In this document: positions 195-21,870 of the stretch, piece by piece | Layout: each line of letters opens with the position of its first letter | Position numbering within the stretch: the first letter of the stretch is position 1 | From: Acaryochloris marina S15 | Lineage (GTDB): Bacteria; Cyanobacteriota; Cyanobacteriia; Thermosynechococcales; Thermosynechococcaceae | Direction of reading: 5' to 3' | NCBI RefSeq assembly: GCF_018336915.1 | Contig: NZ_CP064923.1 | Location: 2,310,001-2,342,000 of the forward strand | Length of the DNA stretch: 32,000 nucleotides | Notes under the pieces: model-generated | Told to the model about the DNA's origin: nothing | Database searches by the model: none | The model's input: only the letters and a program-made list of their open reading frames with translations | Program-made: the position numbers and the translations under genes

Positions 195-1199
195 ATGATG
201 CGATCGATGCTTCCCGGTGCGCCTTGGCTATTGGCGCACAAGTCTATGCTGCTTGTCAATCAGCCCCTCAAGGTGACTCTGGACGGACAGGACTATGTGC
301 TTTGGCAGGATGGCACGGGTTCAGTACAAGCCTTGCCCAATCGCTGTCCCCACATGGGGGCGATGCTGTCGGAAGGTTGGTGTGAACTCTTGCCAGATGG
401 AGATGATGGGCAATCAGGGATTGTCTGTCCTTTTCATGCGCTGCAGTTTGATGGCGCAGGTTGCACCGTTCTGCCGGGTACTCAACGCAAAACATTGCCC
501 CAATTACAGCCTCCAGAGCTAATGATTCAAGGCGATTTTATCTGGTCCTATGGCGGCCATGAGCCCCAAATACCGATTCCCAGCATTATGAATGAAATTG
601 CCCAAGCCTATGATTTTATCGGACCTACTGCTGACTACAGCGTAGAAACGGATTTACTGAGTATGCTGCTGGTGATGCATGACTACAACCATCAAAACGG
701 CACTCACCGTGATTTGTTTCAGATCACCGACGTTCAATTCCATCAATTTGTAGACCATGGGCATCAATCCCATGCGTTTTACGACATGCCCACAGAAACC
801 TATCACTGGACGGAAAAGTTGAGAAAGCCAGATCTGATGTTGCTACCCAAAACCATTCAGGCACATTTGGAGAACTATTTTCCGGGGCTGGTCATTTTAC
901 ATACTGAAACACCCTTAGGAAAAATTGCTCAATGCCATTTCTTTGTGCCTGAGTCAGAACAGCGGACTCGTACTTATATTTTGCTGTTTGCTCAGCTCCA
1001 GCATTCACTATTCAAGGTTTTTGGTAATTCTTTTCTCAAATTCGGCCAAGTGGCAGTAGAACAAGATGTCGATATCTTAGCCAAGCTCTATGGTGATGCA
1101 CCCCAAAATATCAAACTCAATAACGAAGTGGGTATGGATTGGGTTCGACGGAATTTCGACAATTTTCCCAAAGTGGTGGAGCCTCATCTATCCAAGTGA
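195..1199 (+). CDS. Rieske [2Fe-2S] domain non-heme iron oxygenase (alpha-subunit-like)
   Basis: CPHMG ... CPFH gives the C-x-H ... C-x2-H Rieske ligands. DYNHQNGTH gives the D-x2-H-x4-H mononuclear iron motif. The gene has tandem ATGs at 195 and 198 and diverges from the TetR fragment across 49 bp. Confidence 0.8.
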   Translation: MMRSMLPGAPWLLAHKSMLLVNQPLKVTLDGQDYVLWQDGTGSVQALPNRCPHMGAMLSEGWCELLPDGDDGQSGIVCPFHALQFDGAGCTVLPGTQRKTLPQLQPPELMIQGDFIWSYGGHEPQIPIPSIMNEIAQAYDFIGPTADYSVETDLLSMLLVMHDYNHQNGTHRDLFQITDVQFHQFVDHGHQSHAFYDMPTETYHWTEKLRKPDLMLLPKTIQAHLENYFPGLVILHTETPLGKIAQCHFFVPESEQRTRTYILLFAQLQHSLFKVFGNSFLKFGQVAVEQDVDILAKLYGDAPQNIKLNNEVGMDWVRRNFDNFPKVVEPHLSK

Positions 1200-1328
1200 A
1201 TCGGGCAGTAGGATGGTTCTATTCCTAATCTCTAGTCTTGGTCTGAGATTAGAACCTTGGTTCAGAACCACTGGTTTGAAGGGCATGATATTAAACCTTT
1301 CACACCTATATTGAGGAGAAAAATTTCC

Positions 1329-3857
1329 ATGACATCCTCAGAGGATATTAAGGCTTGGTTACAGGAGCATACGGATCTAGATATCTTTCCTGAAAAGATT
1401 CTGGATCGGCTGGCTAGAACAGTAGAAGTACAGACGCTAGAAGCCAATCGGCGACTGATTTTAGAAGATACTTTGCCGGATGCGGTATATATTTTGCGTC
1501 AAGGCCGCCTTGAAAGCTATCACACCAGTTTGGTGGATACGGCACAGGTCTGTAGCTTGTTGCCAGGGGCTGTACTGCATCTCTTCGACATCTTGCTCGA
1601 TCAGCCGACCCTTCAAACCATCAATACTTTAACGGATTGCCAGTTGTGGGTGATTTCCAAAAAAGACCTACTCAAGATCGCGGGTGAATATCAAGATGTG
1701 ACGCGAATTGTGTCGCAAAAGCTGTCTAAAGACTTGGCGAATGTTTCCCAAGAGTTAGTGGCTGAACAGGAACGACAAGCTATCCTCAGACCCTATTTGG
1801 TCCCTAAGGCAAATAGAGGAATAGTCGGCTCTAGCCGCTATGCTAAGCGATTGCGAGAGCAACTCAAGGAGGCAGCACGTACTCGCGATTCAGTGATTAT
1901 CTTTGGCGAACCCGGTCTAGAAAAAGATAATGCAGCCGCTCTCGTTCACTTTGGATCGAACCAAAGACGGGAGCCGATGGTGAAAATTAACTGCAATACT
2001 CTACAAATCAGCGGGGCCAGTTTGTTTGGTCGAGTGGGGGGTAAGCCTGGGCTTCTAGAAGCTGTGGGTGAGGGCACGGTTCTTTTAAATAATATTCAAG
2101 AACTGCCGCCAGCATTATGCCCACAAATACGACGGCTCTTAGAAACCCAGACTTACGTACCGGTTCAAAGAGACGGGAATGCAGTGAAGCCTCGTACCAG
2201 CAATGCTCGCTTAATCTTGACGGCTGAGAAGGTTCAGCCGGAACTGGATGGGGTGATTTCCCATCGGGTTAAGATGCCGCCGTTGCGGGTGAGTAAGGCG
2301 GATGTGGGTGCCCAAGTTGAGTACTATATCAGTCTACTTTCTAAAGAACAGGGCTTTGCTAAGCGCCAGCTGACCCCTGAAGCCTTGCGACGTCTACAAA
2401 GCTACAATTACCCGGGCAATATTGTCGAGCTGCATAGTTTGGTGGAGCGTGCGATCGCACAATCGTCTCCCAACGAAGATCTCACTGCCGAAATCTTTTG
2501 GGCGGCCCAAGATCGCCAACAGCGGTTCCGGCTTAACCTACTCAATGCCAACCCGTGGTTGCGGCGATTTCTCCGCAGTCCCTGGTGGCCCACCCGCATT
2601 AACTACGGCATCGTCTTACCCCTATTTATTTTTGTGGTGATCATTCTATTTGTGGGTCCCCAGCAACGGAGCCAGAACTTTGCCTTGAACTTATTTTGGG
2701 CCTGGTGGTGGCCGTTGATATTAATCGGTTTCCCCTTTGTGGGGCGTCTATGGTGCTCCGTCTGTCCCTTTATGATTTGTGGTGAATTGCTGCAAAAGCT
2801 GTCTCTCTGGCTGGTGCCGAGACAACTGCGGCAATGGCCCCGGCAGCAGGCTGAACAGTGGGGAGGTTGGTTCTTATTTGGTCTATTTACCCTGATCTTT
2901 CTCTGGGAAGAACTCTGGAATTTAGAAGATACGGCCTATCTGTCTAGCTGTCTGCTGCTGCTGATTACGGCAGGTGCCATCATTTGCTCACAGATTTTTG
3001 AGCGCCGATTTTGGTGTCGATATCTTTGTCCTATCGGAGGAATGAATGGCTTATTTGCCAAACTTTCTATGACTGAGCTAAGGGCTCAACAAGGCACCTG
3101 CTCTGCTGAGTGCAGTACCTATCAATGCTACAAAGGCGGACCTGAAAAAGGAGAAGGACAAGAAACAACAGGCTGCCCCCTTTACTCTCATCCCGCTCAA
3201 TTGGAAGATAATAGGGACTGCGTGCTCTGTATGACTTGTTTGCAGGCCTGCCCCCACCGTTCTGTAGAGTTCAATTTGCGTCCCCCCGGTATCGAATTGT
3301 GGACAACCCACACCCCTCGAATCTATGAGGCCGCATTGCTCCTGCTGTTGTTAGGGGGGATTTTCCTGCATCGACTTCCTGAATTGCAAACCTGGATTGG
3401 GCTAGATTTGCATCTGCAGCAATTTTCAGTCCATGCTCTGGTGTCTTGTTTGGTGTTGGGGATAGCTGCTTTGATTCCCTTACTTTCCCATGCCGTCTTA
3501 TGCCGTATCAGTCCTAACTTGAAACCAAGGCCCTTTATAGAATTGGTTTATGGCTATTTACCTCTAGTCCTCGGTGGTACCTTAGCCCATTATTTACGAT
3601 TAGGACTGACCGAAGCAGGTCAAATTCTACCCGTCACCTGGGCCACGTTTGGCTTGGCTGGAGGAGGACTACCGGTCTGGGTAGCCCACCCAGCGGTGGT
3701 TAGTTTCCTGCAAGGTTCCACAATATTGGCTGCAATTTTTCTGACGTGGATTCTCACTCAAAAAATTGCTCGACAACCTATCTCTGTCCTTCTGCCTCAG
3801 CATATGACGAGCCTAGGATTAGGCGTCTGTTTGTGGTCTGTGATTGTGGGAATGTAA
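1329..3857 (+). CDS. Multidomain membrane protein: cNMP-binding-like domain + degenerate sigma-54-interaction-type AAA+ domain + 4Fe-4S/polyferredoxin-like (NapH/COG0348-like) membrane domain
   Basis: The ORF-track start at 1257 is TTG. I prefer ATG 1329, which is preceded by GAGGAG at 1313..1318. The AAA+ core aligns by eye to NtrC-type activators (GEPGLEKD, MPPLRVSKADV, YPGNIVELHS). The C-terminal half has several hydrophobic helices and the Cys motifs CSVCPF, WCRYLCPIGG, CSAECSTYQC and CVLCMTCLQACP. Confidence 0.8.
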   Translation: MTSSEDIKAWLQEHTDLDIFPEKILDRLARTVEVQTLEANRRLILEDTLPDAVYILRQGRLESYHTSLVDTAQVCSLLPGAVLHLFDILLDQPTLQTINTLTDCQLWVISKKDLLKIAGEYQDVTRIVSQKLSKDLANVSQELVAEQERQAILRPYLVPKANRGIVGSSRYAKRLREQLKEAARTRDSVIIFGEPGLEKDNAAALVHFGSNQRREPMVKINCNTLQISGASLFGRVGGKPGLLEAVGEGTVLLNNIQELPPALCPQIRRLLETQTYVPVQRDGNAVKPRTSNARLILTAEKVQPELDGVISHRVKMPPLRVSKADVGAQVEYYISLLSKEQGFAKRQLTPEALRRLQSYNYPGNIVELHSLVERAIAQSSPNEDLTAEIFWAAQDRQQRFRLNLLNANPWLRRFLRSPWWPTRINYGIVLPLFIFVVIILFVGPQQRSQNFALNLFWAWWWPLILIGFPFVGRLWCSVCPFMICGELLQKLSLWLVPRQLRQWPRQQAEQWGGWFLFGLFTLIFLWEELWNLEDTAYLSSCLLLLITAGAIICSQIFERRFWCRYLCPIGGMNGLFAKLSMTELRAQQGTCSAECSTYQCYKGGPEKGEGQETTGCPLYSHPAQLEDNRDCVLCMTCLQACPHRSVEFNLRPPGIELWTTHTPRIYEAALLLLLLGGIFLHRLPELQTWIGLDLHLQQFSVHALVSCLVLGIAALIPLLSHAVLCRISPNLKPRPFIELVYGYLPLVLGGTLAHYLRLGLTEAGQILPVTWATFGLAGGGLPVWVAHPAVVSFLQGSTILAAIFLTWILTQKIARQPISVLLPQHMTSLGLGVCLWSVIVGM

Positions 3858-3926
3858 TGGGTGCTGGAAGAGTACTAAAACTTTTAAATCAGTCTCTATT
3901 CAGATCTGTTTGCTGATGGAAACTAA

Positions 3927-3971
3927 AGAATGGGTTTGCCCCTATAAGAGAGAGGCAAACCCATTCTTTTT
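3927..3971 (+). terminator. Rho-independent terminator downstream of 1329..3857, possibly bidirectional
   Basis: A perfect 14-bp stem pairs agaatgggtttgcc (3927..3940) with ggcaaacccattct (3954..3967) around a 13-nt loop. The T-run ctttttg begins inside the right arm and ends at 3971. On the minus strand the hairpin is followed by TTTAGTTT, so it could also end the small minus-strand ORF. Confidence 0.65.
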
Positions 3972-4046
3972 GGGTTAAGATCTAGCCTTTTTGATAGCCC
4001 TTAACCACAATAATGCAGAAAACAAACAGATTGTGGATGAATCGGA

Positions 4047-4193
4047 TTACACATCATAGACCCGACAGGCATCGGACCAGTCATTGATGGCACAGTATTG
4101 ATCCCAAGTGCTTGGTACAACGTCTGCTTGGTTTGGCTTGGGGAGTAATTCAGTGGTTGTGTTGGGGGTTGTTTGTTGTTTGATTTGAGTCAT
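4047..4193 (-). CDS. Hypothetical 48-aa small protein with two Cys (below ORF-track size cut-off)
   Basis: My own translation of ATG 4193..4191 to TAA 4049..4047 gives MTQIKQQTTPNTTTELLPKPNQADVVPSTWDQYCAINDWSDACRVYDV. Two hairpins (3973..4006 and 3927..3967) lie downstream on the minus strand. A -10-like TAGAAT (plus-strand attcta, 4207..4212) lies upstream. I recognise no homology. Confidence 0.3.
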   Translation of the reverse strand: MTQIKQQTTPNTTTELLPKPNQADVVPSTWDQYCAINDWSDACRVYDV

Positions 4194-4432
4194 TGTTTTT
4201 ACCTAAATTCTACTCGGGCAGTGTCGTAGATTGGAGGCCACACAATTCTCAAGTGAGTCATCAGAAAATAATTGAAATAGGGAATCTTTTTTCTGATGTA
4301 GCCCCATCTGCGATGTCTTTAATGTAGGCGATCTTCTTGAGATCATCCTGAATAGTTTCTGAGAAAACTGAGCAACTTTGAAAAGGGAAAATTGCGAAAA
4401 AACAAAAGATTTTTGGCTTGATTGCGATGAAA

Positions 4433-4693
4433 TTAGCTTTGCTTCTGAAAGTGATTGGTGCCAGCAAATGCACCGGATAGCCACATTAAGCCAAACATTA
4501 TTAGGGTGATGGCTGATGCATGGCCAAAAATTCTGAGGGTGTCGAGAAGAACCATTACATTGTCCTCTGCTGGGTTGATACGGTTTAGTATGCTGGGCCA
4601 GCTAATAGAAAGCAGTGATCGATTTCTGGGGTGGGAGTGATTGCCATCACCCATGGCATGAGGAATGGCCAGTGCCCCCGATTTAGAAGTCAT
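4433..4693 (-). CDS. Hypothetical 86-aa protein with one C-terminal hydrophobic segment (doubtful)
   Basis: This ATG ORF starts 34 bp downstream of the deacetylase stop on the same strand. It contains the hydrophobic stretch ASAITLIMFGLMWLSGAFAG. It has no Shine-Dalgarno sequence and no family I recognise, and neighbouring frames hold other short broken ORFs. Confidence 0.25.
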   Translation of the reverse strand: MTSKSGALAIPHAMGDGNHSHPRNRSLLSISWPSILNRINPAEDNVMVLLDTLRIFGHASAITLIMFGLMWLSGAFAGTNHFQKQS

Positions 4694-4727
4694 TCGGAGG
4701 AAATAGACCTCGGTTTGATGGGGTAAA

Positions 4728-6208: not shown

Positions 6209-6832
6209 ATGAACTATAAATCTTTCATCCTGGCGTTGGGCTTGGTTGCGATCGCATTTCCCGCCCAGGCAGAATTACCCGAACATATTCAACAATTGCT
6301 CAATACTCGTCGCTGTATTCGCTGTGATTTATCCCGTGCTAATTTTGGCGGCATGGATCTGAGCGTTACTAACTTGCAAGGGGCGAACCTGATTTTCTCC
6401 AACTTGGAGAATGCTAACCTCAACGCCTCTAACCTGACGGGTGCCAAGCTCATTCAGGCCCGAATGTCAGATGCGAATCTGCAAACCACCAACCTCAGCG
6501 TTACGGATTTGAGTAAAGCTGATTTGCGAGGCGCTAATTTGGCGGGCGCGGATTTGCGTAGCAGCCGCATGACGTCTGCCAATCTGAAAGGGGCAAAACT
6601 GCAACAAGCCAAACTCCAAGGGGTGAACTTAGGTTCAGCTAATCTGAAAGGGGCAAAGCTGAATGGAGCTAATTTGTTCTCAGCTGATTTAAGGGGCGCT
6701 AATCTCCAAAATGCTGATCTCACAGGTGCAAATCTTAAGGAAGCTGATTTGAGTGGCGCTAATGTGAAGGGAATTAAGCTCACGGATGCAGACCTAACAG
6801 GGGCCACCCTCCCGGATGGCATTTCCCAGTAG
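6209..6832 (+). CDS. Pentapeptide-repeat protein with signal peptide (periplasmic or thylakoid-lumenal type)
   Basis: The signal peptide is MNYKSFILALGLVAIAFPAQA. A CIRCDL cap is followed by an uninterrupted run of A(D/N)LxG-type pentapeptides (ANLSGANLKGAKL...). Confidence 0.9.
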   Translation: MNYKSFILALGLVAIAFPAQAELPEHIQQLLNTRRCIRCDLSRANFGGMDLSVTNLQGANLIFSNLENANLNASNLTGAKLIQARMSDANLQTTNLSVTDLSKADLRGANLAGADLRSSRMTSANLKGAKLQQAKLQGVNLGSANLKGAKLNGANLFSADLRGANLQNADLTGANLKEADLSGANVKGIKLTDADLTGATLPDGISQ

Positions 6833-6835
6833 GTC

Positions 6836-7699
6836 TTACTTGCAGGTTGCCAAGGCTTGAATTGAGGCGGGGATATCCATTTGACAGAATTTAGCCCCGC
6901 TTAAATCAGCATTGCTTAGGTTGGCATCTCGTAAGTTGACATCTGTCATGGCGATTTTGCCGAGATGGGCACTACTTAAGTCGGCCCCGCTGAGATTGAC
7001 GCTTTCTAAAGTGGCTTTTCTCAGATCTGCATGGTTTAACTTGGCCCCATTGAGGTTGGTGTACTTCAGTTGGGCCTGCTTTAGTTTTGCCCCTTTTAAG
7101 TTGGCTTCGCTGAGATTAGCGTTGGCCAAATAGACTTGGTTGAGATTCGCACTCTTGAGGTTGCTTTTATTGAAATTAGCCTCTCTTAGGTCGCTGAAGT
7201 AGACGCGACGATTGCCTTGGGCTGTTTCTACCACAGCAACGCTAAAGTCAGCATCTTCTAAAGCGGCTTCAAACAAGTTGGCCCGGCGCAAATCGGCGCC
7301 TTTGAGCTTGGCTTTGACTAAGGTTGCCTGGGTTAAATTGGCGTCTTGCAAATTGGTGGCTTGCTTGAGGGTTGTGGTTAAGCTGGCCCGTCGTAGGGTG
7401 GCTTTGCTGAGATTGGCAGATTGCAGATTAGCGCTCTCTAGATTGGCATCGTCCAAATTAACGCCCTGTAAATTGGCCCCTTGCAGGTTTGCTCCCTGCA
7501 AGCTAGCGCCTTTTAAATTTTGATCTTGAAAATTAGCTCCCCTGAGGTCGCAACCCTCACAACTGTTCGTGGCCTTTAGCTGCTGAAGATGCTCGGGGTT
7601 GGGAGTCTGAGGGGTATTGCTGGCAGCCCCCAGAGGAAATAACGCGATAAAAGTGGTGACTGTTCCTATAGCGAGACTGCCTTTATTCAACTGTTTCAT
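6836..7699 (-). CDS. Pentapeptide-repeat protein with signal peptide
   Basis: The track start at 7708 is GTG, so I use ATG 7699 (MKQLNKGSLAIGTVTTFIALFPLGAASN...). A CEGCDL cap is followed by long pentapeptide runs. A Cys pair sits near the C-terminus (KFCQ...ATCK). Confidence 0.9.
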   Translation of the reverse strand: MKQLNKGSLAIGTVTTFIALFPLGAASNTPQTPNPEHLQQLKATNSCEGCDLRGANFQDQNLKGASLQGANLQGANLQGVNLDDANLESANLQSANLSKATLRRASLTTTLKQATNLQDANLTQATLVKAKLKGADLRRANLFEAALEDADFSVAVVETAQGNRRVYFSDLREANFNKSNLKSANLNQVYLANANLSEANLKGAKLKQAQLKYTNLNGAKLNHADLRKATLESVNLSGADLSSAHLGKIAMTDVNLRDANLSNADLSGAKFCQMDIPASIQALATCK

Positions 7700-7839
7700 G
7701 TCATTCACCCAAATTAAAAAACGGTCTGCAATAGGTATTTATTCTCTAATCACTGTACTGTGATCAGGACAATGTTACAAAATGCTAAGGTATCGAGCCT
7801 TACCTCGGGGGTGAACCTGCAGACCTGAAAAATTGACCG

Positions 7840-8493
7840 TTATAGCACTCGCCAAATCAATAGCCAAAGGGTCAAAATACTGGTGGTCAACATCGCTTTT
7901 TGGGGGGCAAGGCACTTGACGCCCCAGTACAGTAACCATAATGACCAGAGGCTACCTACCAAGACGCACCAAAATAGCAGTTGGAGGAACACGTGTCCGT
8001 TCAAGATTTGGCTGTATAGGTGGAGCCAAGTTAGGTATTGGTTGAATAGGGGTTCTTCCGGTCTAAATGCTACAAATTGGGTAAAGGGAATCACGCGTCC
8101 GGTCGCTGGCCATAGCCCGGCAGCGCCCACCATGATCAATCCCACAATTGCCAGGGGCCATTGGGTCCACCCTGCAAGCTGCCAAGCCCGCCTTTGGCCG
8201 GTGAGCCATTGAATCATCCATCCGTACACTCCCCAGCTCAATAAGGGCCAACCCATTAAGCCAATGAGTAGGAGGATTACCCAAAACGGGGGGCTTCCAG
8301 TTTCGGCCCTGAAAGACTGTATTAACTCGGTAGAAATAATGGGGGATAAGTTCCGGGTCCAGAGCCCATAGGCGATGTACCGGAGCCAGCCTGCACTTAA
8401 GACAATGCCTAAGGGCACCCAATGTTGAAGCGGTTGATCAAATAGTTGCCGAAAAAAGCGGTGGGGTTGAACAATCAGTGTCCACAGGTTCAT
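7840..8493 (-). CDS. Trp-rich multi-pass membrane protein (Yip1-like topology, family uncertain)
   Basis: This ATG ORF has about five or six hydrophobic segments. Its N-terminus MNLWTLIVQPHRFFRQL resembles Yip1/DUF1282-type proteins, but I could not verify the assignment. Confidence 0.6.
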   Translation of the reverse strand: MNLWTLIVQPHRFFRQLFDQPLQHWVPLGIVLSAGWLRYIAYGLWTRNLSPIISTELIQSFRAETGSPPFWVILLLIGLMGWPLLSWGVYGWMIQWLTGQRRAWQLAGWTQWPLAIVGLIMVGAAGLWPATGRVIPFTQFVAFRPEEPLFNQYLTWLHLYSQILNGHVFLQLLFWCVLVGSLWSLWLLYWGVKCLAPQKAMLTTSILTLWLLIWRVL

Positions 8494-8580: not shown

Positions 8581-11040
8581 CTATGTGAATTCTGACAATA
8601 TCCGTTCAAGTCCTTTGAGTCGAACGGGTTTTGCAATGTAGTCGTCCATGCCTGAGGCTAAATACGACTCGCGATCGCCCTGCATCGTATTGGCTGTCAT
8701 AGCAACAATGCGTGGCCGAGTTGTGTTATCCCACTCTTCACAAATACTCTGGGCTGTGGTGATGCCGTCCATCTCCGGCATTTGGACATCCATCAGCACC
8801 ACATCATAGGTTTGTTTACGCAATGCTGCTAGCACCTCCAATCCATTGGTGACCAGATCTGCTTGATAGCCCAAGCGATCGAGTAACTTAAGAATGACTT
8901 TTTGATTGACAACGTTATCTTCCGCCACCAAAATTCTGACCGGAGAAGTGGTCGGTGGTTGGAGTGGCTTGGATGTTGAGGGCTGGACAATATCGGACAG
9001 ATGAGTGGAGAGAGATTTGATTAGGGCCTGGTAGAGCCTAAATTGCTTAACGGGTTTACTGAGAGAGGCCGATAGAAGAGGCTGATATTGCCAAATGGCT
9101 GCACTTTCGCCGATGGCACATAAGCCAATAATGGGGAGTGGGGCTTGAACATGATTTTGAGTCAGCTCCGACAGGAGTCTGGGCCAGGCCATATCGGGGA
9201 GCTGCAGATCTGCGATCGCAACATCAAATCTCATGTTCCTAACCCATTCCATGGCCTCCCAGCCAGATGAAGCCAAGGTGGGAACTAATCCCCAAGTCTG
9301 GACTTGTTGGCAAAGAATCTGGCCCGTGCTGGCATTGTCTTCTACAATCAAAACCCGTTTATTTTGGAATTGGGGTTCTGTTTCTCGGTGATCCTCAGGG
9401 CCTGGTAAAGCAGAAGCCGCAATGGTGAAGAAAAAGGTTGAACCAATCCCCACCTGACTCTCCACCCAAATCGTCCCGCCCATCAGCTCGCAGAGTTGTT
9501 TGCTAATGGCCAATCCTAATCCCGTTCCACCATATTCCCGGGTAATGGAGGAGTCTAGTTGGCAAAAAGACTGAAACAGTTTTTGCTGATGATCCGGGGC
9601 AATGCCAATGCCGGTATCTTTGACGGCAAAGAGGAGTTCATGGAGGGATAAAGGGACTTCTGGGGTCATCTCCGCAGTGGCGACATCTCGGGCAGAGATG
9701 GTTACAATGACTTCGCCAGAGGCCGTGAACTTCACCGCATTTCCCAGCAGGTTGACAAGGATTTGCCGGAGGCGATTGGCATCTCCCTGGATATGGATGG
9801 GGGTTCCGGGTTCAATACAATAAGCCAGTTCCAGCCCTTTGGCTGTCGCTTTGGAGTTGACAATATCTAAGGCTTCTTCCACACAGGTGGAGATGGGGAA
9901 GGGATGTAGCTCTAGTTCTAATTTCCCTGACTCAATTTTCGAAAAATCAAGAATGTCATTAATGATATTGAGGAGTGATTCACCGCTGGTTCGAATCGTT
10001 TCCACAAAATCCTGCTGATGGGGATCGAGGTGAGTATCTTTCAGTAAATCCGTCATGCCGATCACGGCATTCATCGGCGTGCGAATTTCGTGGCTAATCA
10101 TGGCCAGGAACTCGCTTTTGGCGAGGTTTGCTGCTTGGGCGGCTTGGCTACTTTCTAGCAGAGCCTGATTTTTGGTTTGGAGGGCAGTTTGTAGTTGTAA
10201 TGTTTTTTGGAGCTGGAGATACAGGGCGGCCTCGGCTTGTTTGCGTTGGCTAATATCCTGCATTTCTGCAATGAAATAGGAGGGTTTCCCCTGGGAATTG
10301 TGGATTAAGGCAACATTTAAGAGGACGGAAAGGGTATGCCCCAACCGATGAAGAAACCGTTTTTCAGTCTGATAACTGGGCGTTTGACCGATTAAGAGCT
10401 GTCGAATTTGATGCCGATCAATGTCTTGATCCTCTGGGTGAGTCAGATCTTCAATGCGCAATTTTAGGAGTTCAGATGGCCCATAGCCTAAGAGTTGGCT
10501 TAAGGCTAGGTTGACTTGGAGCCAAGATCCATCTAAAGCGAGTAATGCTTTGGCGATGGCGGCATTATTAAAGGATGTCCGAAACCGCTCTTCGATCTGG
10601 ATGGTTTGTTGCTTGAGCAGGGCTTCCCGTTTCTTTTGTAGATCCTTTTTGATGGTGATATCTCGGCAAATCCCCCAAACCTGCCGATCTCCCGTCCTCG
10701 CATCTGTGGTCGGGGTATAAATCGTGTCGTAGTAGTAGCGTTGATGATTAAATACGAGTTCCTGTTCAGCAAAAATTCTTTCCCCCGTTTCCAAGGCCGA
10801 TGTGATAAATGGATCGATTAGTTCTGCTTGTGGCCCCAAGAGTTTCTGGTTCGTTTGACCCAGGATTTGTTCATAGGCCAACTGCAGCCGCTGGGCACCG
10901 ATTTTATTGATAGTGATAATTCGCAAATTTCGGTCATAGGCCACGAAGATATCAACCGTTTGGTCAATAAAGGCCGCGAAGGGATTGGCCAATGAAAGAG
11001 AAGAAGCGATGTTGAATGGATCCGCAGGCTGTTGTGGCAT
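8581..11040 (-). CDS. Hybrid sensor histidine kinase (PAS-PAS-HisKA-HATPase_c-REC-REC)
   Basis: The H-box is SHEIRTPMN. The N, G1 and G2 boxes are LLGNAVKFT, DTGIGI and GGTGLGLAISKQL. Two receiver domains follow (VLIVEDN...VAIADLQLPDM and ILVAEDN...VVLMDVQMPEMDG...KPV). The track start at 11064 is TTG, and I prefer ATG 11040 (MPQQPADPF), though the choice is ambiguous. Confidence 0.9.
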   Translation of the reverse strand: MPQQPADPFNIASSLSLANPFAAFIDQTVDIFVAYDRNLRIITINKIGAQRLQLAYEQILGQTNQKLLGPQAELIDPFITSALETGERIFAEQELVFNHQRYYYDTIYTPTTDARTGDRQVWGICRDITIKKDLQKKREALLKQQTIQIEERFRTSFNNAAIAKALLALDGSWLQVNLALSQLLGYGPSELLKLRIEDLTHPEDQDIDRHQIRQLLIGQTPSYQTEKRFLHRLGHTLSVLLNVALIHNSQGKPSYFIAEMQDISQRKQAEAALYLQLQKTLQLQTALQTKNQALLESSQAAQAANLAKSEFLAMISHEIRTPMNAVIGMTDLLKDTHLDPHQQDFVETIRTSGESLLNIINDILDFSKIESGKLELELHPFPISTCVEEALDIVNSKATAKGLELAYCIEPGTPIHIQGDANRLRQILVNLLGNAVKFTASGEVIVTISARDVATAEMTPEVPLSLHELLFAVKDTGIGIAPDHQQKLFQSFCQLDSSITREYGGTGLGLAISKQLCELMGGTIWVESQVGIGSTFFFTIAASALPGPEDHRETEPQFQNKRVLIVEDNASTGQILCQQVQTWGLVPTLASSGWEAMEWVRNMRFDVAIADLQLPDMAWPRLLSELTQNHVQAPLPIIGLCAIGESAAIWQYQPLLSASLSKPVKQFRLYQALIKSLSTHLSDIVQPSTSKPLQPPTTSPVRILVAEDNVVNQKVILKLLDRLGYQADLVTNGLEVLAALRKQTYDVVLMDVQMPEMDGITTAQSICEEWDNTTRPRIVAMTANTMQGDRESYLASGMDDYIAKPVRLKGLERILSEFT

Positions 11041-11168
11041 TGGGATAATCGTTGATCCCCTCAACAGGTCTAAATAGAAAGTCGGCTGACGTAATTATGG
11101 CATGCTCATTCAAAGACCTGCATGGAGCTTGCTACAGTATTCACTGATGGATAAGGACTTTCCTCTCT

Positions 11169-11981
11169 ATGTGCCGTTTGTTGGGCTATTTAGGCGAACC
11201 GGTTTCGTTAGATACCTTTCTTATTACTCCCCGCCATTCCCTCGTGGCCCAGAGTTACCAGCCCAAAGAAATGACGGCGGGTTTAATTAATGCCGATGGT
11301 TTTGGCATGGGTTGGTACAAGCCCGCTACAGATCAACTGCCCTATCGGTATCGCAATAGTTTGCCCATTTGGAACGATCCGAATTTTGAGGAACTCTGTC
11401 GCTATATTTCTTCTGGAAGTTTTTTGGCTTATATTCGCAGCGCCACCTTGGGGCAAAGTCTGCAGCTTAGTAATTGCCAGCCGTTTGGCGATGGGCAGTT
11501 ACTGGGGATTCACAATGGTTTTATTGAACGGTTCCGCCAAACCCTATATCGACCGATGCGGGAATGTCTCGGTGACGAACGCTATCAAAGTATCGAAGGA
11601 ACAACAGACTCAGAACATATTCTGGCTTTAATCTATGAAACTCTGGCTCAAAATCCTGAGCAAACCCTGGTGGGTGCGTTAACCCAAACCTTGAACCAGA
11701 TTAAGACTTGGGCTAAGTCCTATGAGGTGCGCGTTAGCTTGAATATCGTTCTCAGTGATGGTCAATCCATGACGGTGTCTCGCTTTGCCTATCCAGATCC
11801 GCCCCCATCTTTGTATTGGCTGAATGTCACCCATCCGGTGAAAGGGGTGGTGGTAGCTTCGGAGCCTTTGGATGCAGATGAGCAGATGCGATCGCAGTTT
11901 GGAGACTGCTGGCAATCCATTCCGGCAAACAGTTTATTAACCATCAATCCCAAGGGAGAAGTCACCACTCATGCCCTCTAA
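11169..11981 (+). CDS. egtC: Class-II (Ntn) glutamine amidotransferase, EgtC-like gamma-glutamyl hercynylcysteine sulfoxide hydrolase
   Basis: The N-terminus MCRLLGYLG carries the Cys2 nucleophile typical of Ntn amidotransferases and EgtC. The gene sits immediately upstream of egtB and overlaps it by 11 bp. Confidence 0.75.
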   Translation: MCRLLGYLGEPVSLDTFLITPRHSLVAQSYQPKEMTAGLINADGFGMGWYKPATDQLPYRYRNSLPIWNDPNFEELCRYISSGSFLAYIRSATLGQSLQLSNCQPFGDGQLLGIHNGFIERFRQTLYRPMRECLGDERYQSIEGTTDSEHILALIYETLAQNPEQTLVGALTQTLNQIKTWAKSYEVRVSLNIVLSDGQSMTVSRFAYPDPPPSLYWLNVTHPVKGVVVASEPLDADEQMRSQFGDCWQSIPANSLLTINPKGEVTTHAL

Positions 11982-13269
11982 GGAGATGTTTACTGAAACA
12001 GAACACCTACAATTAGCTATTAGGGAAACCCTGACTCAGTCCCGCGCTCGCACCCTCCAGTTATTTGAAGACGTCAGTGAAGATACGTTTCGACTGCAAG
12101 CCAATTCTGACTTTAGTCCTGTGGGATGGCATTTAGGACATATTGGCTTTACCGAAGGACTTTGGCTTTTAGAGCATGAAGCTGGATTCGCTCCACTATT
12201 TCCTGAGTATCGGCAGTTATTTGCGGCGGATGGGTTACCGAAGGCTGAGCGGCAAAATCTACCCTCTTTTACAGAGATTTGTGCCTATCTAGATCAAATC
12301 CGGAATCAAGTTTGGGACTATTTGCTGGAAGCCCCCTTAGACTCTCGGGCTTGGCTATGGCATTGGCTAGTCCAGCATGAAAGTCAGCATTGCGAGACGA
12401 TCACCTGGGTTCTTCAACTGCATCGCCGAAAATCACAACCCGTTGCTTTTGTGCCAAAGGAAAAGAAATGGCCCGTTGCCGTTGTCAATGTCTCTAAAAC
12501 TGCAAAGACATCCCTGCCAGATCCAGGCATGCTTCCGATTGAAGGGGGGCGATTCTTATTAGGCAATGACCAGTTAGAAGCCCTGGATAACGAAAAAAAA
12601 TCTCATTGGGTTCAGGTAGATTCGTTTTGGATGGATCGATTTCCGGTGACTCAAGGTCAATATCAACAGTTCATTGAGGCTGGAGGATATGGCCAGTCTC
12701 ACTATTGGTCAGCAGCGGGATGGCAATGGTTGCAATCTAACCCCGTCAATCATCCCACCCACTGGATGGCAGAGGGGGGAGCTGATCATCCAGTCTGTGG
12801 GGTGAGCTGGTATGAAGCCGATGCCTATGCCCGGTTTGTGGGTAAACGCCTGCCTACCGAGGCGGAATGGGAAAAAGCGGCCTGCTGGCACCCTGCACCC
12901 CAGGATCCTCCCACCAAGCGAGACTACCCTTGGGGCAACCAGGCCCTAGAAAAGCATCACTGTAATCATGGGGGCTTGCAGTGGGGGACAACCCCCGTCC
13001 ATCAGTATGCAAAAGGGCAAAGTGCCTATGGTTGTTTCGATTTACTGGGAAATGTTTGGGAATGGACGAATACTTGGTTCCATCCCTTTCCTGATTTCGA
13101 GCCCTATCCTTACAAAGGGTATTCCATGGTCTATTTTGATCACCAGCATCGCATCTTAAAAGGAGGCAGTTGGGCCACCCAGGCTCCAGTCCTCCGGGGG
13201 GCTTTCCGGAACTGGTATGAGCCTCGGATTCGAATTCATTTTGCCGGGTTTCGCTGTGCCTATGGCTAG
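11971..13269 (+). CDS. egtB: Ergothioneine biosynthesis sulfoxide synthase EgtB (DinB_2 + FGE-sulfatase domains)
   Basis: The N-terminal DinB-like His motifs are WHLGHIGFTE and HESQHCETI. The C-terminal FGE/SUMF1-like region contains GVSWYEADAYARFVGKRLPTEAEWEKAA, GNVWEWT and GGSWAT. The gene is flanked by egtC and egtD. Confidence 0.8.
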   Translation: MPSKEMFTETEHLQLAIRETLTQSRARTLQLFEDVSEDTFRLQANSDFSPVGWHLGHIGFTEGLWLLEHEAGFAPLFPEYRQLFAADGLPKAERQNLPSFTEICAYLDQIRNQVWDYLLEAPLDSRAWLWHWLVQHESQHCETITWVLQLHRRKSQPVAFVPKEKKWPVAVVNVSKTAKTSLPDPGMLPIEGGRFLLGNDQLEALDNEKKSHWVQVDSFWMDRFPVTQGQYQQFIEAGGYGQSHYWSAAGWQWLQSNPVNHPTHWMAEGGADHPVCGVSWYEADAYARFVGKRLPTEAEWEKAACWHPAPQDPPTKRDYPWGNQALEKHHCNHGGLQWGTTPVHQYAKGQSAYGCFDLLGNVWEWTNTWFHPFPDFEPYPYKGYSMVYFDHQHRILKGGSWATQAPVLRGAFRNWYEPRIRIHFAGFRCAYG

Positions 13270-13355
13270 TTGTGCGGGTTTGTTTGGGATGGTTTACAGT
13301 GGTTGGGAACCTTAGGTGACCGTTGTGTTGCCTCCCTGTTGGAGACCTCTCACCC

Positions 13356-14474
13356 ATGCTTGAGTCTGTGCATACAGCAACTCAATCCCTGTCGGCACTA
13401 TCCCCTACGGACCTTCCATCTCGTTTACAGATTACCCAATTTGCTTCGGACCCGTCTCCGACCGCTACCCAGCCAGGACTAGATGTGATTCAAGGGTTGT
13501 CGAAAACGCCCAAAACCCTCCCGGCTAAATATTTTTACGATGATCCAGGCTCTCAACTTTTTGAAAAAATCTGTGAGTTGCCGGAATATTACCCCACCCG
13601 GACTGAGACTGCTATTCTCCAGGCCTATGCATCCGAAATCGCCACCATCACTGGCCCTAGTGAGTTAGTAGAATTGGGGAGTGGCAGTTCTACAAAGACA
13701 CGGTTGCTCTTAGATGCCTATGTTGATATTGGTCTTGCCTCTTGGTACTGCCCCATTGACGTGAGCGGCGGTATCCTCAAACAGAGCGCCATCAACCTAC
13801 TCAAGGACTATCCCACCCTCAATATTCATGGCTATGTCGGCACCTATGAGGCCGCTCTAGCTGCCTTGCCGCCCTCTCAATTGCCAACCCGGATGATTTG
13901 CTTTCTGGGCAGTACTCTGGGGAATCTTAACCCTCAGGAATGTGAACACTTCTTTGCTGAGTTAACCCAAGCGTTGCAACCCGGTGAGTATTTACTGTTA
14001 GGGGTAGATTTACAAAAATCGGTTCAGCAATTAGAAGCTGCCTATAACGATAGCCAAGGGGTGACGGCCGCGTTTAACTTGAATATGCTGCAGCATCTCA
14101 ATCAGCGATTTCAAGGTGATTTCCAGGTGGATAATTTCCAACACCAAGCGTTTTACAATCTGGATGAGCATCAGATCGAAATGCATCTCGTTAGCCTAAA
14201 GACTCAGCAGGTCAACCTAGCGGCCCTGGATCTGGCGGTTGAGTTTGACCAGGAAGAAACCATCCGGACTGAAATCTCTCGTAAATTTGATTTAGAGACC
14301 TTAAAGCAACAATTGCGCTCCGTCTCTCAGGAATTGGCGGAGTCTTCGGATGGAGGGGAGACTTCAATACAAAAGGAATTAACCCCCTTGCGAACTTGGA
14401 CGGATGCAAACCAATGGTTTGGGCTGGTTCTTTGCCAATGCCAGGAAATTTCTCAGGTGACCCAGGAGAGCTGA
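13356..14474 (+). CDS. egtD: L-histidine N-alpha-methyltransferase EgtD
   Basis: YFYDDPGSQLFEKICELPEYYPTRTETAIL and ELGSGSSTKTRLLL (SAM-binding) are characteristic of EgtD, as is the C-terminal TDANQWFGLVLCQ. The track start at 13323 is TTG, so I use ATG 13356. Confidence 0.85.
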   Translation: MLESVHTATQSLSALSPTDLPSRLQITQFASDPSPTATQPGLDVIQGLSKTPKTLPAKYFYDDPGSQLFEKICELPEYYPTRTETAILQAYASEIATITGPSELVELGSGSSTKTRLLLDAYVDIGLASWYCPIDVSGGILKQSAINLLKDYPTLNIHGYVGTYEAALAALPPSQLPTRMICFLGSTLGNLNPQECEHFFAELTQALQPGEYLLLGVDLQKSVQQLEAAYNDSQGVTAAFNLNMLQHLNQRFQGDFQVDNFQHQAFYNLDEHQIEMHLVSLKTQQVNLAALDLAVEFDQEETIRTEISRKFDLETLKQQLRSVSQELAESSDGGETSIQKELTPLRTWTDANQWFGLVLCQCQEISQVTQES

Positions 14475-21751: not shown

Positions 21752-21870
21752 GCTCGACTCCAAAATCCCCTAACATCTCCACTAAAATAACTCTGAAAAA
21801 AGTTTTTCGCCGCATTTCTGTAAATATGAGCAAAAGATTTTGCTAAATCCCTCTATTCAAAGGGAAAGCA

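What the first reader, a model, noticed from the sequence alone, without database searches (positions are those of the whole stretch)
1329..3857. Fusion of a cNMP-binding-like domain, a catalytically degenerate sigma-54-activator-type AAA+ module and a Cys-rich polyferredoxin-like membrane domain
The central region aligns by eye to the NtrC-type AAA+ core, but its catalytic motifs are degenerate. Walker A reads GEPGLEKD (1905..1928) against canonical GESGTGKE. The Walker B position reads VLLNNI (2079..2096), with NN in place of DE. The GAFTGA sigma-54 contact loop position reads GRVGGKPGLLEA (2028..2063). No HTH follows the module. The N-terminal cNMP-like barrel also lacks a clear FGE...R[ST]A phosphate-binding cassette (LFDILLDQPTLQTINT). 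The C-terminal ~420 aa, in contrast, keeps intact motifs (CSVCPF, WCRYLCPIGG, CSAECSTYQC, CVLCMTCLQACP) among multiple TM helices, as in NapH/COG0348 proteins. Cyanobacteria are not known to encode sigma-54. This therefore looks like a repurposed pseudo-ATPase linking a sensor-like domain to a membrane redox module, not an enhancer-binding protein. I know of no assigned function for this architecture.
Basis: partly seen in the sequence, partly recalled or inferred. Interest (0 to 1): 0.7.

Follow-up and report, generated by a model that had tools for sequence, protein, structure and literature searches.

The report
Dead AAA+ module on membrane iron-sulfur protein
This Acaryochloris gene, annotated as a sigma-54 transcription activator, encodes a nine-helix membrane iron-sulfur protein with a catalytically dead AAA+ module and a degenerate cyclic-nucleotide domain, and the uncharacterised family is found in cyanobacteria of many orders and in green algae.

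Summary
Gene 1329..3857 (+) encodes 842 aa. All domains score above Pfam cut-offs: cNMP_binding (35-118), Sigma54_activat (165-300), AAA_lid_14 (323-390) and Fer4_5/NapH-like (470-650). Every quoted motif sits at the stated coordinates.

- The AAA+ fold is of the bEBP type (TM 0.8 to PspF/NtrC1). The GAFTGA loop is deleted, Walker B is NN, the P-loop Gly is Glu, and there is no HTH.
- These altered motifs are fixed, not decaying. GEPGLEKD occurs in 167 of 174 cyanobacterial members and NN in 173 of 174. None of 390 family members has DE at Walker B.
- Twelve Cys are invariant or nearly so across the family (CX2CP, CX3CP, two ferredoxin-type motifs).
- The family is not cyanobacteria-specific. 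Green algae and Klebsormidium carry the cyanobacterial type. Elusimicrobia, Acidobacteria and Armatimonadota carry relatives with a canonical P-loop, often a canonical cNMP cassette, or REC or GAF/FHA sensors instead.
- There is no conserved operon in cyanobacteria. The membrane domain has no solved structural relative.

Best reading: a membrane electron-transfer protein of NapH type, controlled or scaffolded by an inactivated AAA+ ring. It is not a transcription factor. The substrate is unknown.

The parts
1329..3857 (+). Whole gene, 842 aa plus stop. A GAGGAG lies about 11 nt upstream of the ATG.
   Evidence: The product is 100% identical to an A. marina database protein of 842 aa.
1431..1682 (+). 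CRP-type cNMP-binding-like beta-barrel (aa 35-118)
   Evidence: Pfam PF00027, 7.6e-11, above cut-off. The AF2 model shows strands at 33-110.
1566..1619 (+). Degenerate phosphate-binding cassette (aa 80-97). H84-L85 replace G-E, and T94-L95-Q96 replace R-S/T-A.
   Evidence: The region is conserved in this altered form in 38 cyanobacterial rows. Distant relatives have FGE (G66, E57 of 69) and often PRSA (R 30 of 69).
1692..1796 (+). Long linker helix (aa 122-156) joining the barrel to the AAA+ module
   Evidence: AF2 secondary structure, H122-156.
1821..2228 (+). AAA+ alpha/beta core of the sigma-54-activator (bEBP) clade (aa 165-300)
   Evidence: Pfam PF00158, 1.9e-14. PDB sequence hits to VpsR, NifA, DmpR, FleQ, NtrX and PspF. 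Foldseek target TM 0.8.
1905..1928 (+). Variant Walker A, GEPGLEKD. The GK glycine is replaced by Glu and the Lys is kept.
   Evidence: GEPGLEKD occurs in 167 of 174 cyanobacterial-type members.
2028..2063 (+). Truncated L1 loop, GRVGGKPGLLEA, in place of the GAFTGA sigma-54 contact loop
   Evidence: Alignment gaps against VpsR, NifA and CapR show the deletion.
2079..2096 (+). Walker B position, VLLNNI (NN instead of DE)
   Evidence: NN occurs in 173 of 174 cyanobacterial-type members, and DE in none of 390 family members.
2295..2498 (+). AAA+ lid domain (aa 323-390). The sensor-II position reads GNIVEL (2418..2432), with Val in place of Arg.
   Evidence: Pfam PF25601, 2.2e-10..
2583..2996 (+). 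NapH-type four-helix membrane module (TM1-TM4, aa 419-556)
   Evidence: AF2 helices. NapH/MauN model 4.1e-13. Loop charges fit an N-in topology.
2754..2768 (+). First membrane-edge Cys pair, C476-x2-C479-P (CX2CP), on the cytoplasmic side after TM2
   Evidence: Both Cys are invariant in 116 sequences. One of the two Fer4_5 stretches.
3015..3032 (+). Second Cys pair, C563-x3-C567-P (CX3CP), on the cytoplasmic side after TM4
   Evidence: Both Cys are invariant in 116 sequences. Pfam Fer4_5 at 544-579.
3072..3293 (+). Cytoplasmic ferredoxin-like domain (aa 582-655). It carries C591-x3-C595-x4-C600...C616-P and C631-x2-C634-x2-C637-x3-C641-P.
   Evidence: The eight Cys are invariant or at least 90% conserved. 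Weak Fer4-family hits. Most conserved domain of the protein.
3321..3851 (+). Family-specific five-helix bundle (TM5-TM9, aa 665-841)
   Evidence: AF2 helices. No Pfam hit at E up to 10. P745-L746 are conserved family-wide.
3929..3972 (+). Terminator-like hairpin with a 12-bp perfect core stem followed by CTTTTTGG, 70 nt after the stop codon
   Evidence: Free energy -29.4 kcal/mol, z = -5.96, and none of 200 shuffles folded as well.

Best explanation
The product is a polytopic membrane iron-sulfur oxidoreductase-type protein, not a transcription factor.

**Shown.**
- An N-in, nine-helix membrane domain.
- Its first four helices, two cytoplasm-facing Cys pairs (CX2CP, CX3CP) and a cytoplasmic eight-Cys ferredoxin-like domain match the NapH/NosR-type electron-transfer module.
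- This is the most conserved part of the protein.
- On the cytoplasmic N-terminus sits a regulatory arm derived from a bacterial enhancer-binding protein: a CRP-like barrel, a long helix, and an AAA+ core plus lid.
- The arm has lost the sigma-54 contact loop, the Walker B acidic pair, the P-loop glycine and any DNA-binding domain.

**Inferred.**
- The AAA+ module no longer does mechanical work. It acts as a nucleotide-hydrolysis-independent assembly or docking scaffold.
- It sets the oligomeric or conformational state of the membrane module, and so gates electron flow between a membrane quinone or thiol site and the cytoplasmic Fe-S clusters.
- In the wider family the N-terminal domain is the signal input. 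The evidence is a cNMP domain with an intact cassette, REC next to a kinase, or GAF/FHA.
- In the cyanobacterial and algal branch that input is degenerate (cyanobacteria) or deleted (many algae). The AAA+ and membrane core therefore work constitutively or through another ligand or partner.
- The electron donor, the acceptor and the physiological process are unknown.
For: **Domains and fold.**
- Domains score above cut-off.
- The AAA+ fold is bEBP-type.
- No HTH is detected, and the lid is followed by TM helices.

**Inactivating changes are fixed under selection.**
- GEPGLEKD occurs in 167 of 174 cyanobacterial-type members and NN in 173 of 174. DE occurs in none of 390 family members.
- VpsR, with Walker B ND, lacks ATPase activity (PMC6158489).

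**Membrane module.**
- Twelve Cys are invariant or at least 90% conserved across 116 sequences that share down to 21% identity.
- NapH/MauN and NapH models hit residues 470-651.
- Topology by loop charge puts both Cys pairs and the Fe-S domain in the cytoplasm, as published for NapH-type modules.
- Mean frequency of the commonest residue per column is highest in TM1-4 (0.88) and the Fe-S domain (0.95). It is 0.75 for the AAA+ core and 0.66 for the barrel.

**Input logic.**
- N-terminal domains are swapped (cNMP, REC+HisKA, GAF+FHA) on a constant AAA+ and membrane core.
- The REC variant lies directly after a hybrid kinase and a REC gene.
- cNMP variants lie near a CHASE2 cyclase or other cNMP-domain genes.
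- Many algae drop the barrel but keep the AAA+, the Cys motifs and the GEPGLEK variant.
Against: - No biochemical datum exists for any member.
- No conserved gene neighbour in 82 cyanobacterial loci points to a pathway.
- The NapH model scores far below its curated cut-off (49 against 213 bits). The first Cys motif is CX2CP rather than CX3CP.
- One ferredoxin motif has atypical spacing, so the cluster type and number are unproven.
- The oligomeric state was not modelled.
- The direction of signalling (arm to membrane, or membrane to arm) is inferred only from domain swapping.
- If algae can lose the barrel, the AAA+ must have a role beyond relaying that input.
Confidence: 0.5

Rival explanations
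1. The protein is a redox sensor with reversed signal flow. The NapH-like module reads the redox state of the quinone pool or of cytoplasmic ferredoxin or thiols through its Fe-S clusters and Cys pairs. The dead AAA+ ring is the output. It binds or releases a cytoplasmic partner at the membrane, a sequestration-type control.
For: - The altered AAA+ surface motifs are strictly conserved (GRxGGKPG in place of the L1 loop, GEPGLEKDN), as expected for a binding surface.
- Algae keep the AAA+ but can lose the barrel.
- Related NosR and RdhC proteins were first taken for regulators (PMC5928378).
Against: - No partner gene is conserved next to it.
- Swapping of classical input domains at the N-terminus, and a kinase/REC operon for the REC variant, argue that signals enter from the N-terminus.
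- The membrane and Fe-S part is the most conserved region, as expected for a catalytic part.
Confidence: 0.25
2. The protein is a metal reductase or cofactor-assembly factor of the CcoG kind. The Fe-S clusters reduce Cu(II), or another metal, bound at the membrane-edge Cys pairs. This would supply Cu(I) to P1B-ATPases and so to plastocyanin or oxidase assembly in cyanobacteria and algal plastids.
For: - CcoG, a membrane protein of the polyferredoxin class, has two [4Fe-4S] clusters and two Cu sites and reduces Cu(II) (review PMC7558416).
- The CxxC-P and CxxxC-P pairs are invariant.
- The distribution covers lineages that use plastocyanin.
- Synechocystis slr1529, a probable but unverified orthologue, is repressed 3.4-fold by high copper (PMC4182526).
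Against: - No CcoG-family model hits the C-terminal half at E up to 1, while NapH/MauN does.
- No copper genes lie nearby.
- The copper repression is listed among selected genes repressed after the high-copper treatment, in a section on a general stress response.
- The periplasmic Ig-like domain of CcoG is absent.
Confidence: 0.1
3. The protein is a genuine transcription regulator as annotated, acting with sigma-70 like the atypical EBPs TyrR, NtrX and VpsR.
For: - The best sequence and fold matches are NtrX and VpsR, both atypical EBPs without GAFTGA.
- Databases name it 'sigma 54-interacting transcriptional regulator' or 'ntrX'.
Against: - No HTH or other DNA-binding domain is detected.
- The place of the DNA-binding domain is taken by 450 residues of membrane protein modelled at pLDDT 96.
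- All NCBIfam regulator equivalogs score far below cut-off, for example NtrX at 90 against 600 bits.
Confidence: 0.03
4. The N-terminal arm is a functionless relic and only the membrane domain matters.
For: - Catalytic motifs of both the barrel and the AAA+ are degenerate.
- Some algae have lost the barrel.
Against: - The degenerate motifs are almost invariant across 174 cyanobacterial-type sequences, and algae retain the variant P-loop and a non-acidic (NN/TN/KN) Walker B.
- The AAA+ core is as conserved as the lid and the TM5-9 bundle.
- The full-length model is confident throughout (pLDDT 94, pTM 0.78).
Confidence: 0.02

Closest known systems
Atypical enhancer-binding proteins (VpsR, NtrX, TyrR, HupR)
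   Same: - The AAA+ domain belongs to the sigma-54-activator clade and lacks GAFTGA.
- Walker motifs are non-consensus. VpsR has ND at Walker B and no ATPase activity.
- The AAA+ serves as a ligand-binding or oligomerisation domain, not a motor.
- VpsR is the best PDB sequence match (1.2e-22). NtrX is the best NCBIfam hit and the best Foldseek hit.
   Different: - All of those proteins end in an HTH and bind DNA. This protein has no DNA-binding domain and ends in a nine-helix Fe-S membrane domain.
- Its sensor is a CRP-type barrel, not REC or ACT/PAS.
- Its P-loop also carries G to E.
NapH / MauN quinol dehydrogenase ferredoxin subunits (TIGR02163, PRK09477)
   Same: - Four TM helices.
- Two Cys-x-Cys-Pro motifs at the cytoplasmic membrane edge.
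- A C-terminal cytoplasmic poly-Cys ferredoxin domain.
- Significant HMM matches over residues 470-651. Module definition from PMC5928378.
   Different: - The score is far below the family cut-off (49 against 213 bits).
- The first motif is CX2CP.
- One Fe-S motif has CX3CX4C spacing.
- There are five extra C-terminal helices and a 400-residue N-terminal cytoplasmic arm.
- No NapG, NapA or nap operon is nearby.
NosR / NirI and RdhC (PceC) membrane redox proteins
   Same: - They share the same four-TM, two-Cys-pair membrane module, and NosR also has two 4Fe-4S motifs.
- They too were first annotated as transcriptional regulators and later reinterpreted as electron-transfer proteins (PMC5928378).
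- There is a weak NosR model hit (7.8e-4).
   Different: - Those proteins carry a periplasmic FMN-binding domain and sit in nos or rdh operons.
- This protein has no FMN domain. Its extra domain is cytoplasmic (cNMP-like plus AAA+) and the gene stands alone.
Canonical bEBPs (NtrC1, PspF, NifA)
   Same: The AAA+ core and lid fold is shared (target TM 0.80-0.82, rmsd about 2.5 A). The overall layout is also shared: an N-terminal sensor, a linker helix, then the AAA+ module.
   Different: GAFTGA, the Walker B DE, the sensor-II Arg and the HTH are all missing. The organism's phylum lacks sigma-54.
CcoG / FixG cupric reductase
   Same: It is a membrane polyferredoxin with two Fe-S clusters and Cys-based metal sites. 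It shows that this class can act on a metal and not only on quinol.
   Different: No CcoG model hit. The periplasmic Ig-like domain is absent and there is no ccoGHIS context.

Membership tests
Sigma-54-dependent enhancer-binding proteins (bEBP) | AAA+ domain of the Sigma54_activat family | tested here: met
   PF00158 at 1.9e-14 and PF25601 at 2.2e-10. Foldseek target TM 0.8 to PspF and NtrC1.
Sigma-54-dependent enhancer-binding proteins (bEBP) | GAFTGA sigma-54 contact motif in the L1 loop | tested here: not met
   The position reads GRVGGKPG, with an approximately 8-residue deletion relative to NifA and CapR. It is absent in all family members inspected.
Sigma-54-dependent enhancer-binding proteins (bEBP) | Catalytic Walker A GxxGxGK and Walker B hhhhDE | tested here: not met
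   The motifs read GEPGLEKD and VLLNNI. DE occurs in none of 390 members.
Sigma-54-dependent enhancer-binding proteins (bEBP) | C-terminal HTH DNA-binding domain | tested here: not met
   No HTH family was found in the Pfam scan at E up to 1. Residues 396-842 are modelled as a membrane domain at pLDDT 96.
Sigma-54-dependent enhancer-binding proteins (bEBP) | rpoN (sigma-54) in the same genome | not testable with these tools
   Only 32 kb of the genome is held, and it contains no rpoN. The literature reports sigma-54 absent from all 29 cyanobacteria surveyed (PMC3162934).
Atypical sigma-70-dependent EBPs (TyrR/NtrX/VpsR type) | bEBP-type AAA+ without GAFTGA | tested here: met
Atypical sigma-70-dependent EBPs (TyrR/NtrX/VpsR type) | DNA-binding domain and promoter binding | tested here: not met
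   No DNA-binding domain was detected. Promoter binding itself cannot be tested here.
NapH/MauN family (TIGR02163) | Whole-protein score above the curated cut-off | tested here: not met
   49.4 bits against a cut-off of 213.
NapH/NosR/RdhC membrane module | Four TM helices with two CX3CP motifs on the cytoplasmic side | tested here: inconclusive
   Four helices and two invariant Cys pairs are present in the predicted cytoplasmic loops. The first pair is CX2CP (C476-C479-P) and the second is CX3CP. Definition from PMC5928378.
NapH/NosR/RdhC membrane module | Two [4Fe-4S]-binding motifs C-terminal to the module (NapH, NosR) | tested here: inconclusive
   One canonical CX2CX2CX3CP motif (631-642) and one atypical CX3CX4C...CP motif (591-617) are present. 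All eight Cys are conserved. Cluster content needs spectroscopy.
NapH/NosR/RdhC membrane module | Operon with its redox partner (napG/napA, nosZ, rdhA) | tested here: not met
   No such genes lie in the window or in 82 cyanobacterial loci.
CRP/FNR-type cNMP-binding domain | Beta-barrel fold matching PF00027 | tested here: met
   7.6e-11, 42 bits against a cut-off of 27.5.
CRP/FNR-type cNMP-binding domain | Phosphate-binding cassette FGE...R[ST]A | tested here: not met
   H84-L85 and T94-L95-Q96 occupy these positions in the window protein. Cyanobacterial rows never show GE or R, whereas distant relatives do.
CcoG/FixG cupric reductase | Match to a CcoG-family model and a periplasmic Ig-like C-terminal domain | tested here: not met
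   No CcoG model appears among NCBIfam hits at E up to 1. The C-terminus is a five-helix bundle.

The most novel reading that the evidence does not exclude
The family is a so far unrecognised component of photosynthetic or respiratory electron transport shared by cyanobacteria and green-algal plastids. It would be a ferredoxin (or other cytoplasmic/stromal donor):plastoquinone oxidoreductase built on a NapH-type module run in reverse. Its activity would be set by a nucleotide-independent AAA+ ring. That would make it a candidate for an unassigned route of cyclic or chlororespiratory electron flow. The evidence does not exclude this. The module links a quinone-facing membrane part to stromal-side Fe-S clusters, the phyletic pattern follows oxygenic phototrophs, and algal copies carry transit-peptide-like leaders. 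Nothing tests it directly.
Probability: 0.07. Interest if true: 0.9.

Novelty: new variant of a known kind. Interest (0 to 1): 0.62.

Why it matters
**Annotation error.** The gene is annotated in cyanobacterial genomes as a sigma-54-interacting regulator, in a phylum without sigma-54. Its probable Synechocystis copy (slr1529, 'ntrX') has been treated as a nitrogen regulator and included in a transcription-factor knockout set. The annotation is wrong in kind, because the protein is a membrane Fe-S protein.

**An uncharacterised protein of oxygenic phototrophs.** The family is retained from cyanobacteria into Chlorophyta and Klebsormidium with all twelve cysteines intact. That pattern is typical of proteins tied to the photosynthetic membrane, yet no function is known.

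**A natural experiment on AAA+ function.** Relatives exist with an intact P-loop and cNMP cassette, alongside cyanobacterial forms with both degraded, and none has a catalytic Walker B. This series can show what an AAA+ ring does when it no longer hydrolyses ATP. It can also show how bEBP-type sensor-to-AAA+ logic is coupled to a redox enzyme instead of RNA polymerase.

**Structure.** The membrane domain has no solved structural relative.

Tried and rejected
**Gene neighbourhood.**
- I clustered all ORFs of at least 100 aa in 82 cyanobacterial loci. No neighbour family occurs in more than 12 loci, and those reflect Nostocales-only synteny.
- The upstream Rieske oxygenase is conserved only within Acaryochloris.
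- Context therefore gives no pathway.

**Structure search for the membrane half.** The separate model is confident (pLDDT 95.9, pTM 0.93). Foldseek against the PDB gives no hit at E <= 0.001. phmmer against the PDB gives only weak CxxCxxCxxxCP ferredoxin matches.

**Pfam on the last 188 residues.** No hit at E up to 10.

**Literature.**
- Ten searches found no study of the architecture in cyanobacteria or algae.
- slr1529 appears in only three searchable papers, as an expression or knockout list entry.
- Its orthology to this protein could not be verified, because no Synechocystis sequence was reachable.

**CcoG membership.** Rejected on the lack of any model hit.

**PspF-like partner of Vipp1/PspA.** I considered this idea and dropped it. 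PspF is not the closest bEBP and nothing else supports it.

**Links considered but not shown.**
- A link to the absence of sigma-54 is rejected as the cause of degeneration. Relatives in Acidobacteria and Elusimicrobia also lack DE and GAFTGA, and one such locus also encodes a REC plus Sigma54_activat response regulator.
- The PNAS paper on CcoG could not be read.


Full report
**Observation.** The window carries an ORF at 1257..3857 on the + strand. Its ATG at 1329 gives an 842-aa product that is 100% identical to a database protein of Acaryochloris marina named 'sigma 54-interacting transcriptional regulator'. All domains score above Pfam gathering scores:
- cNMP_binding, residues 35-118, 7.6e-11
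- Sigma54_activat, residues 165-300, 1.9e-14
- AAA_lid_14, residues 323-390, 2.2e-10
- Fer4_5, residues 544-579, 4.5e-6

NCBIfam adds the NapH/MauN model over residues 470-649 (1.5e-12). It also lists a string of bEBP equivalogs (NtrX, NorR, NifA, PspF and others), all far below their cut-offs. A strong hairpin followed by a T-run lies 70 nt after the stop. The gene looks like its own unit, or at most is paired with the upstream Rieske gene.

**Anatomy.** AlphaFold2 on a 116-sequence alignment gives pLDDT 94.2 and pTM 0.78. The predicted order is:
- a beta-barrel (33-110)
- a 35-residue helix (122-156)
- an AAA+ core and lid (165-395)
- two short amphipathic helices
- nine long hydrophobic helices, interrupted between helix 4 and helix 5 by a small Cys-rich domain (582-655)

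Foldseek places the AAA+ part on NtrX, DmpR, FleQ, PspF and NtrC1, with target TM 0.80-0.82 and rmsd about 2.5 A for the isolated AAA+ structures. The best PDB sequence match is VpsR, an atypical EBP. Loop charges fit an N-in topology, which puts both membrane-edge Cys pairs and the Cys-rich domain in the cytoplasm. A separate model of residues 396-842 is very confident (pLDDT 95.9, pTM 0.93). It has no structural relative in the PDB (no Foldseek hit at E <= 0.001; only weak ferredoxin motif matches by sequence). The last five helices match no Pfam family.

**The AAA+ is catalytically dead, and deliberately so.** Aligned to VpsR, NifA and CapR:
- The L1 loop that carries GAFTGA is shortened to GRVGGKPG.
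- Walker B is NN.
- Walker A is GEPGLEKD, with Glu in place of the GK glycine.
- Sensor II reads GNIVEL, with Val in place of Arg.

Among the 120 closest homologues, GEPGLEKDN and NN are essentially invariant. In 390 full-length family members aligned to a family HMM, none has DE at Walker B. Of 174 cyanobacterial-type sequences, 173 have NN and 167 have GEPGLEKD. That is purifying selection on the altered state, not decay. For VpsR, whose Walker B is ND, no ATPase activity was detected (PMC6158489). No HTH or other DNA-binding domain is present. Sigma-54 and true EBPs were reported absent from all 29 cyanobacteria surveyed (PMC3162934). The annotation as a sigma-54-interacting regulator is therefore wrong in kind.

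**The membrane and Fe-S part is the conserved core.**
- Across 116 sequences sharing down to 21% identity, these Cys are invariant: C476 and C479 (CX2CP); C563 and C567 (CX3CP); C591, C595 and C600; and C631.
- C616-P, C634, C637 and C641-P are at least 90% conserved.
- Mean frequency of the commonest residue per column in cyanobacteria is 0.88 for TM1-4 and 0.95 for the Fe-S domain. It is 0.75 for the AAA+ core and 0.66 for the barrel.
- The published definition of the NapH/NosR/RdhC module is four membrane segments with two CX3CP motifs, plus two 4Fe-4S motifs in NapH and NosR (PMC5928378).
- This protein fits that plan with three differences. The first motif is CX2CP, one Fe-S motif is spaced CX3CX4C...CP, and the NapH model scores far below cut-off (49 against 213 bits).

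The best 80 are nearly all cyanobacteria (a few MAG records carry uninformative or discordant titles) and span many orders.
- An exhaustive profile-free search of 1.8 billion cluster representatives found 424 representatives below 1e-30.
- The 41-51%-identity tier turned out to be nuclear genes of green algae: Trebouxia, Edaphochlamys, Picocystis and Ostreococcus.
- A search from the Edaphochlamys protein added Volvox, Gonium, Tetrabaena, Chlamydomonas incerta, Chlorella, Micractinium, Coccomyxa, Scenedesmus, Haematococcus and the streptophyte alga Klebsormidium. No land plant appeared in the top 120.
- All algal copies keep the Cys motifs, the GEPGLEK-type P-loop and a non-acidic Walker B.
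- Many have replaced the barrel with a short leader. In several species (Chlorella, Edaphochlamys_b, Klebsormidium) its composition resembles a chloroplast transit peptide. This is my reading of the sequences, and no targeting predictor was available.
- The 25-33% tier comes from Elusimicrobia, Acidobacteria/Thermoanaerobaculia, Armatimonadota, Handelsmanbacteria and Desulfitobacteriaceae.
- Those proteins mostly have a canonical P-loop (GK in 98 of 136). They have the FGE of the phosphate-binding cassette (123 of 136) and, in a minority, the cassette Arg (23 of 136; 30 of 69). None has a catalytic Walker B.
- Some carry REC+HisKA or GAF+FHA in place of the cNMP domain.

**Genomic context.**
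- In cyanobacteria no neighbour is conserved. The largest neighbour family occurs in 12 of 82 loci, all within one lineage.
- The upstream Rieske oxygenase is shared only by Acaryochloris.
- In distant loci the neighbours are suggestive but not uniform:
  - a CHASE2 cyclase
  - a small cNMP-domain protein with a NapC/NrfH-like multihaem cytochrome
  - an MscS-cNMP channel
  - for the REC-type variant, a hybrid kinase and a REC gene immediately upstream
- Three of seven distant loci have a homologous small protein of about four predicted TM helices directly downstream.

**Mechanism.**
- Shown: a membrane protein with a NapH-type module, conserved Cys ligands, a bEBP-type AAA+ that lacks every catalytic and sigma-54-contact determinant, and no DNA-binding domain.
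- Inferred, step 1: classical input domains are exchanged on a constant AAA+ and membrane core, and the REC form sits in a phosphorelay operon. Signals therefore enter at the N-terminus, and the AAA+ and membrane part is the effector.
- Inferred, step 2: the whole family lacks a catalytic Walker B. The AAA+ therefore acts through assembly or docking, not through ATP-driven remodelling. Relatives with an intact P-loop may use ATP binding to stabilise that assembly.
- Inferred, step 3: in the cyanobacterial and algal branch both the cNMP cassette and the P-loop glycine were lost, and later the barrel itself was lost in many algae. The core now works constitutively or with another ligand or partner.
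- Inferred, step 4: by analogy with NapH, NosR and CcoG, the module passes electrons between a membrane-side site (quinone, or the Cys pairs) and cytoplasmic Fe-S clusters.
- I put 0.5 on this overall picture. The negative statements (not a sigma-54 activator, not an ATPase motor, a membrane Fe-S protein) are much firmer than the positive mechanism.
- The main rival reverses the signal flow, with a redox sensor and the AAA+ as a docking output (0.25). A CcoG-like metal reductase role is a specific variant (0.1).

**Known and new.** Atypical EBPs without GAFTGA are known, but all bind DNA. NapH, NosR, RdhC and CcoG modules are known, but none carries a cytoplasmic AAA+ arm. The fusion is catalogued in databases under misleading names. 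I found no paper that describes or tests it. Synechocystis slr1529 ('ntrX', 'nitrogen assimilation regulatory protein') is probably the orthologue, but I could not verify the sequence. It appears only in three places:
- an iron-limitation expression table
- a copper-repressed gene list
- a transcription-factor knockout set, where the mutant showed metabolite changes at 72 h

I rate the finding a new variant of known kinds with unknown function. It is interesting because of its distribution across cyanobacteria of many orders and into green algae.

**Limits.**
- No multimer modelling was possible.
- Presence in Gloeobacter, the picocyanobacteria, red algae and land plants was not determined.
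- rpoN absence rests on the literature and on the 32-kb window only.

Noticed in passing
P0122, P0123, P0124, P0134/P0403, P0420-P0461 (proteins; no window coordinates): Nuclear-encoded homologues (41-51% identity) occur in many green algae and in Klebsormidium. They keep all Cys motifs and the GEPGLEK P-loop variant. Volvocales, Chlorella, Micractinium, Klebsormidium and Ostreococcus lack the cNMP-like barrel and have short leaders, some of which resemble transit peptides. Chlamydomonas incerta and Edaphochlamys have two copies close together on one contig, adjacent by locus tag in C. incerta.
   Followed up: partly
L083:8551-8958, L086:7529-7921, L089:7993-8472: A homologous small protein (130-159 aa, about four predicted TM helices) lies 0-20 nt downstream of the family gene in three of seven non-cyanobacterial loci. 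It has no significant Pfam family. It accompanies both cNMP-type and REC-type variants and is absent from all 82 cyanobacterial loci by tblastn. It may be a partner subunit.
   Followed up: partly
window 195..1199 (+): A Rieske [2Fe-2S] / VanA_C-like oxygenase gene lies 130 nt upstream on the same strand. The adjacency is conserved only in Acaryochloris (L003, L004), so it is probably not a functional partner family-wide.
   Followed up: yes
window 3858..4727: An approximately 870-nt stretch has no ORF of 100 aa or more after the terminator hairpin, only small overlapping minus-strand ORFs (4203..4693). In A. marina MBIC11017 (L003) the interval between the family gene and the deacetylase gene is about 3.5 kb, so the region is variable between strains.
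   Followed up: no
window 11169..14474 (+): Three adjacent genes resemble an ergothioneine-type cluster. They encode a class-II glutamine amidotransferase, a DinB_2 + FGE-sulfatase protein (EgtB-like) and a Methyltransf_33 histidine methyltransferase (EgtD-like, 1.6e-114).
   Followed up: no
window 6209..6832 (+), 6836..7708 (-), 20597..21763 (-): Three pentapeptide-repeat proteins. The first two are convergent and separated by only 3 nt, and each has a signal-peptide-like N-terminus.
   Followed up: no
window 8581..11064 (-): A hybrid histidine kinase (PAS, PAS, HisKA, HATPase_c and two receiver stretches) lies next to a Yip1-domain membrane protein (7840..8493).
   Followed up: no
window 27233..29173 (-) and 29379..31415 (-): Two tandem Ser/Thr protein kinase genes. 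One has an N-terminal zinc ribbon and the other an SH3_3 domain. They are preceded by a calcineurin-like phosphoesterase gene (25969..27225).
   Followed up: no
P0017, P0018, P0019 (Trichocoleus and relatives): Variants of 1115-1121 aa in the cyanobacterial family contain the full 842-aa architecture plus about 270 extra residues. The nature of the extension was not examined.
   Followed up: no
P0127 / P0399 (Spirulina major, 901 aa): A cyanobacterial member at only 41% identity has a canonical-looking P-loop (GAPGTGKTF) but still a non-acidic Walker B (SN). It is either a divergent orthologue or a second lineage within cyanobacteria.
   Followed up: no
L001:4294-5718 (Chroococcidiopsis sp. 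CCMEE 29): Directly upstream of the family gene, on the same strand, is a cNMP_binding + HATPase_c protein of 474 aa. The pair recurs in 4 of 82 loci only.
   Followed up: partly
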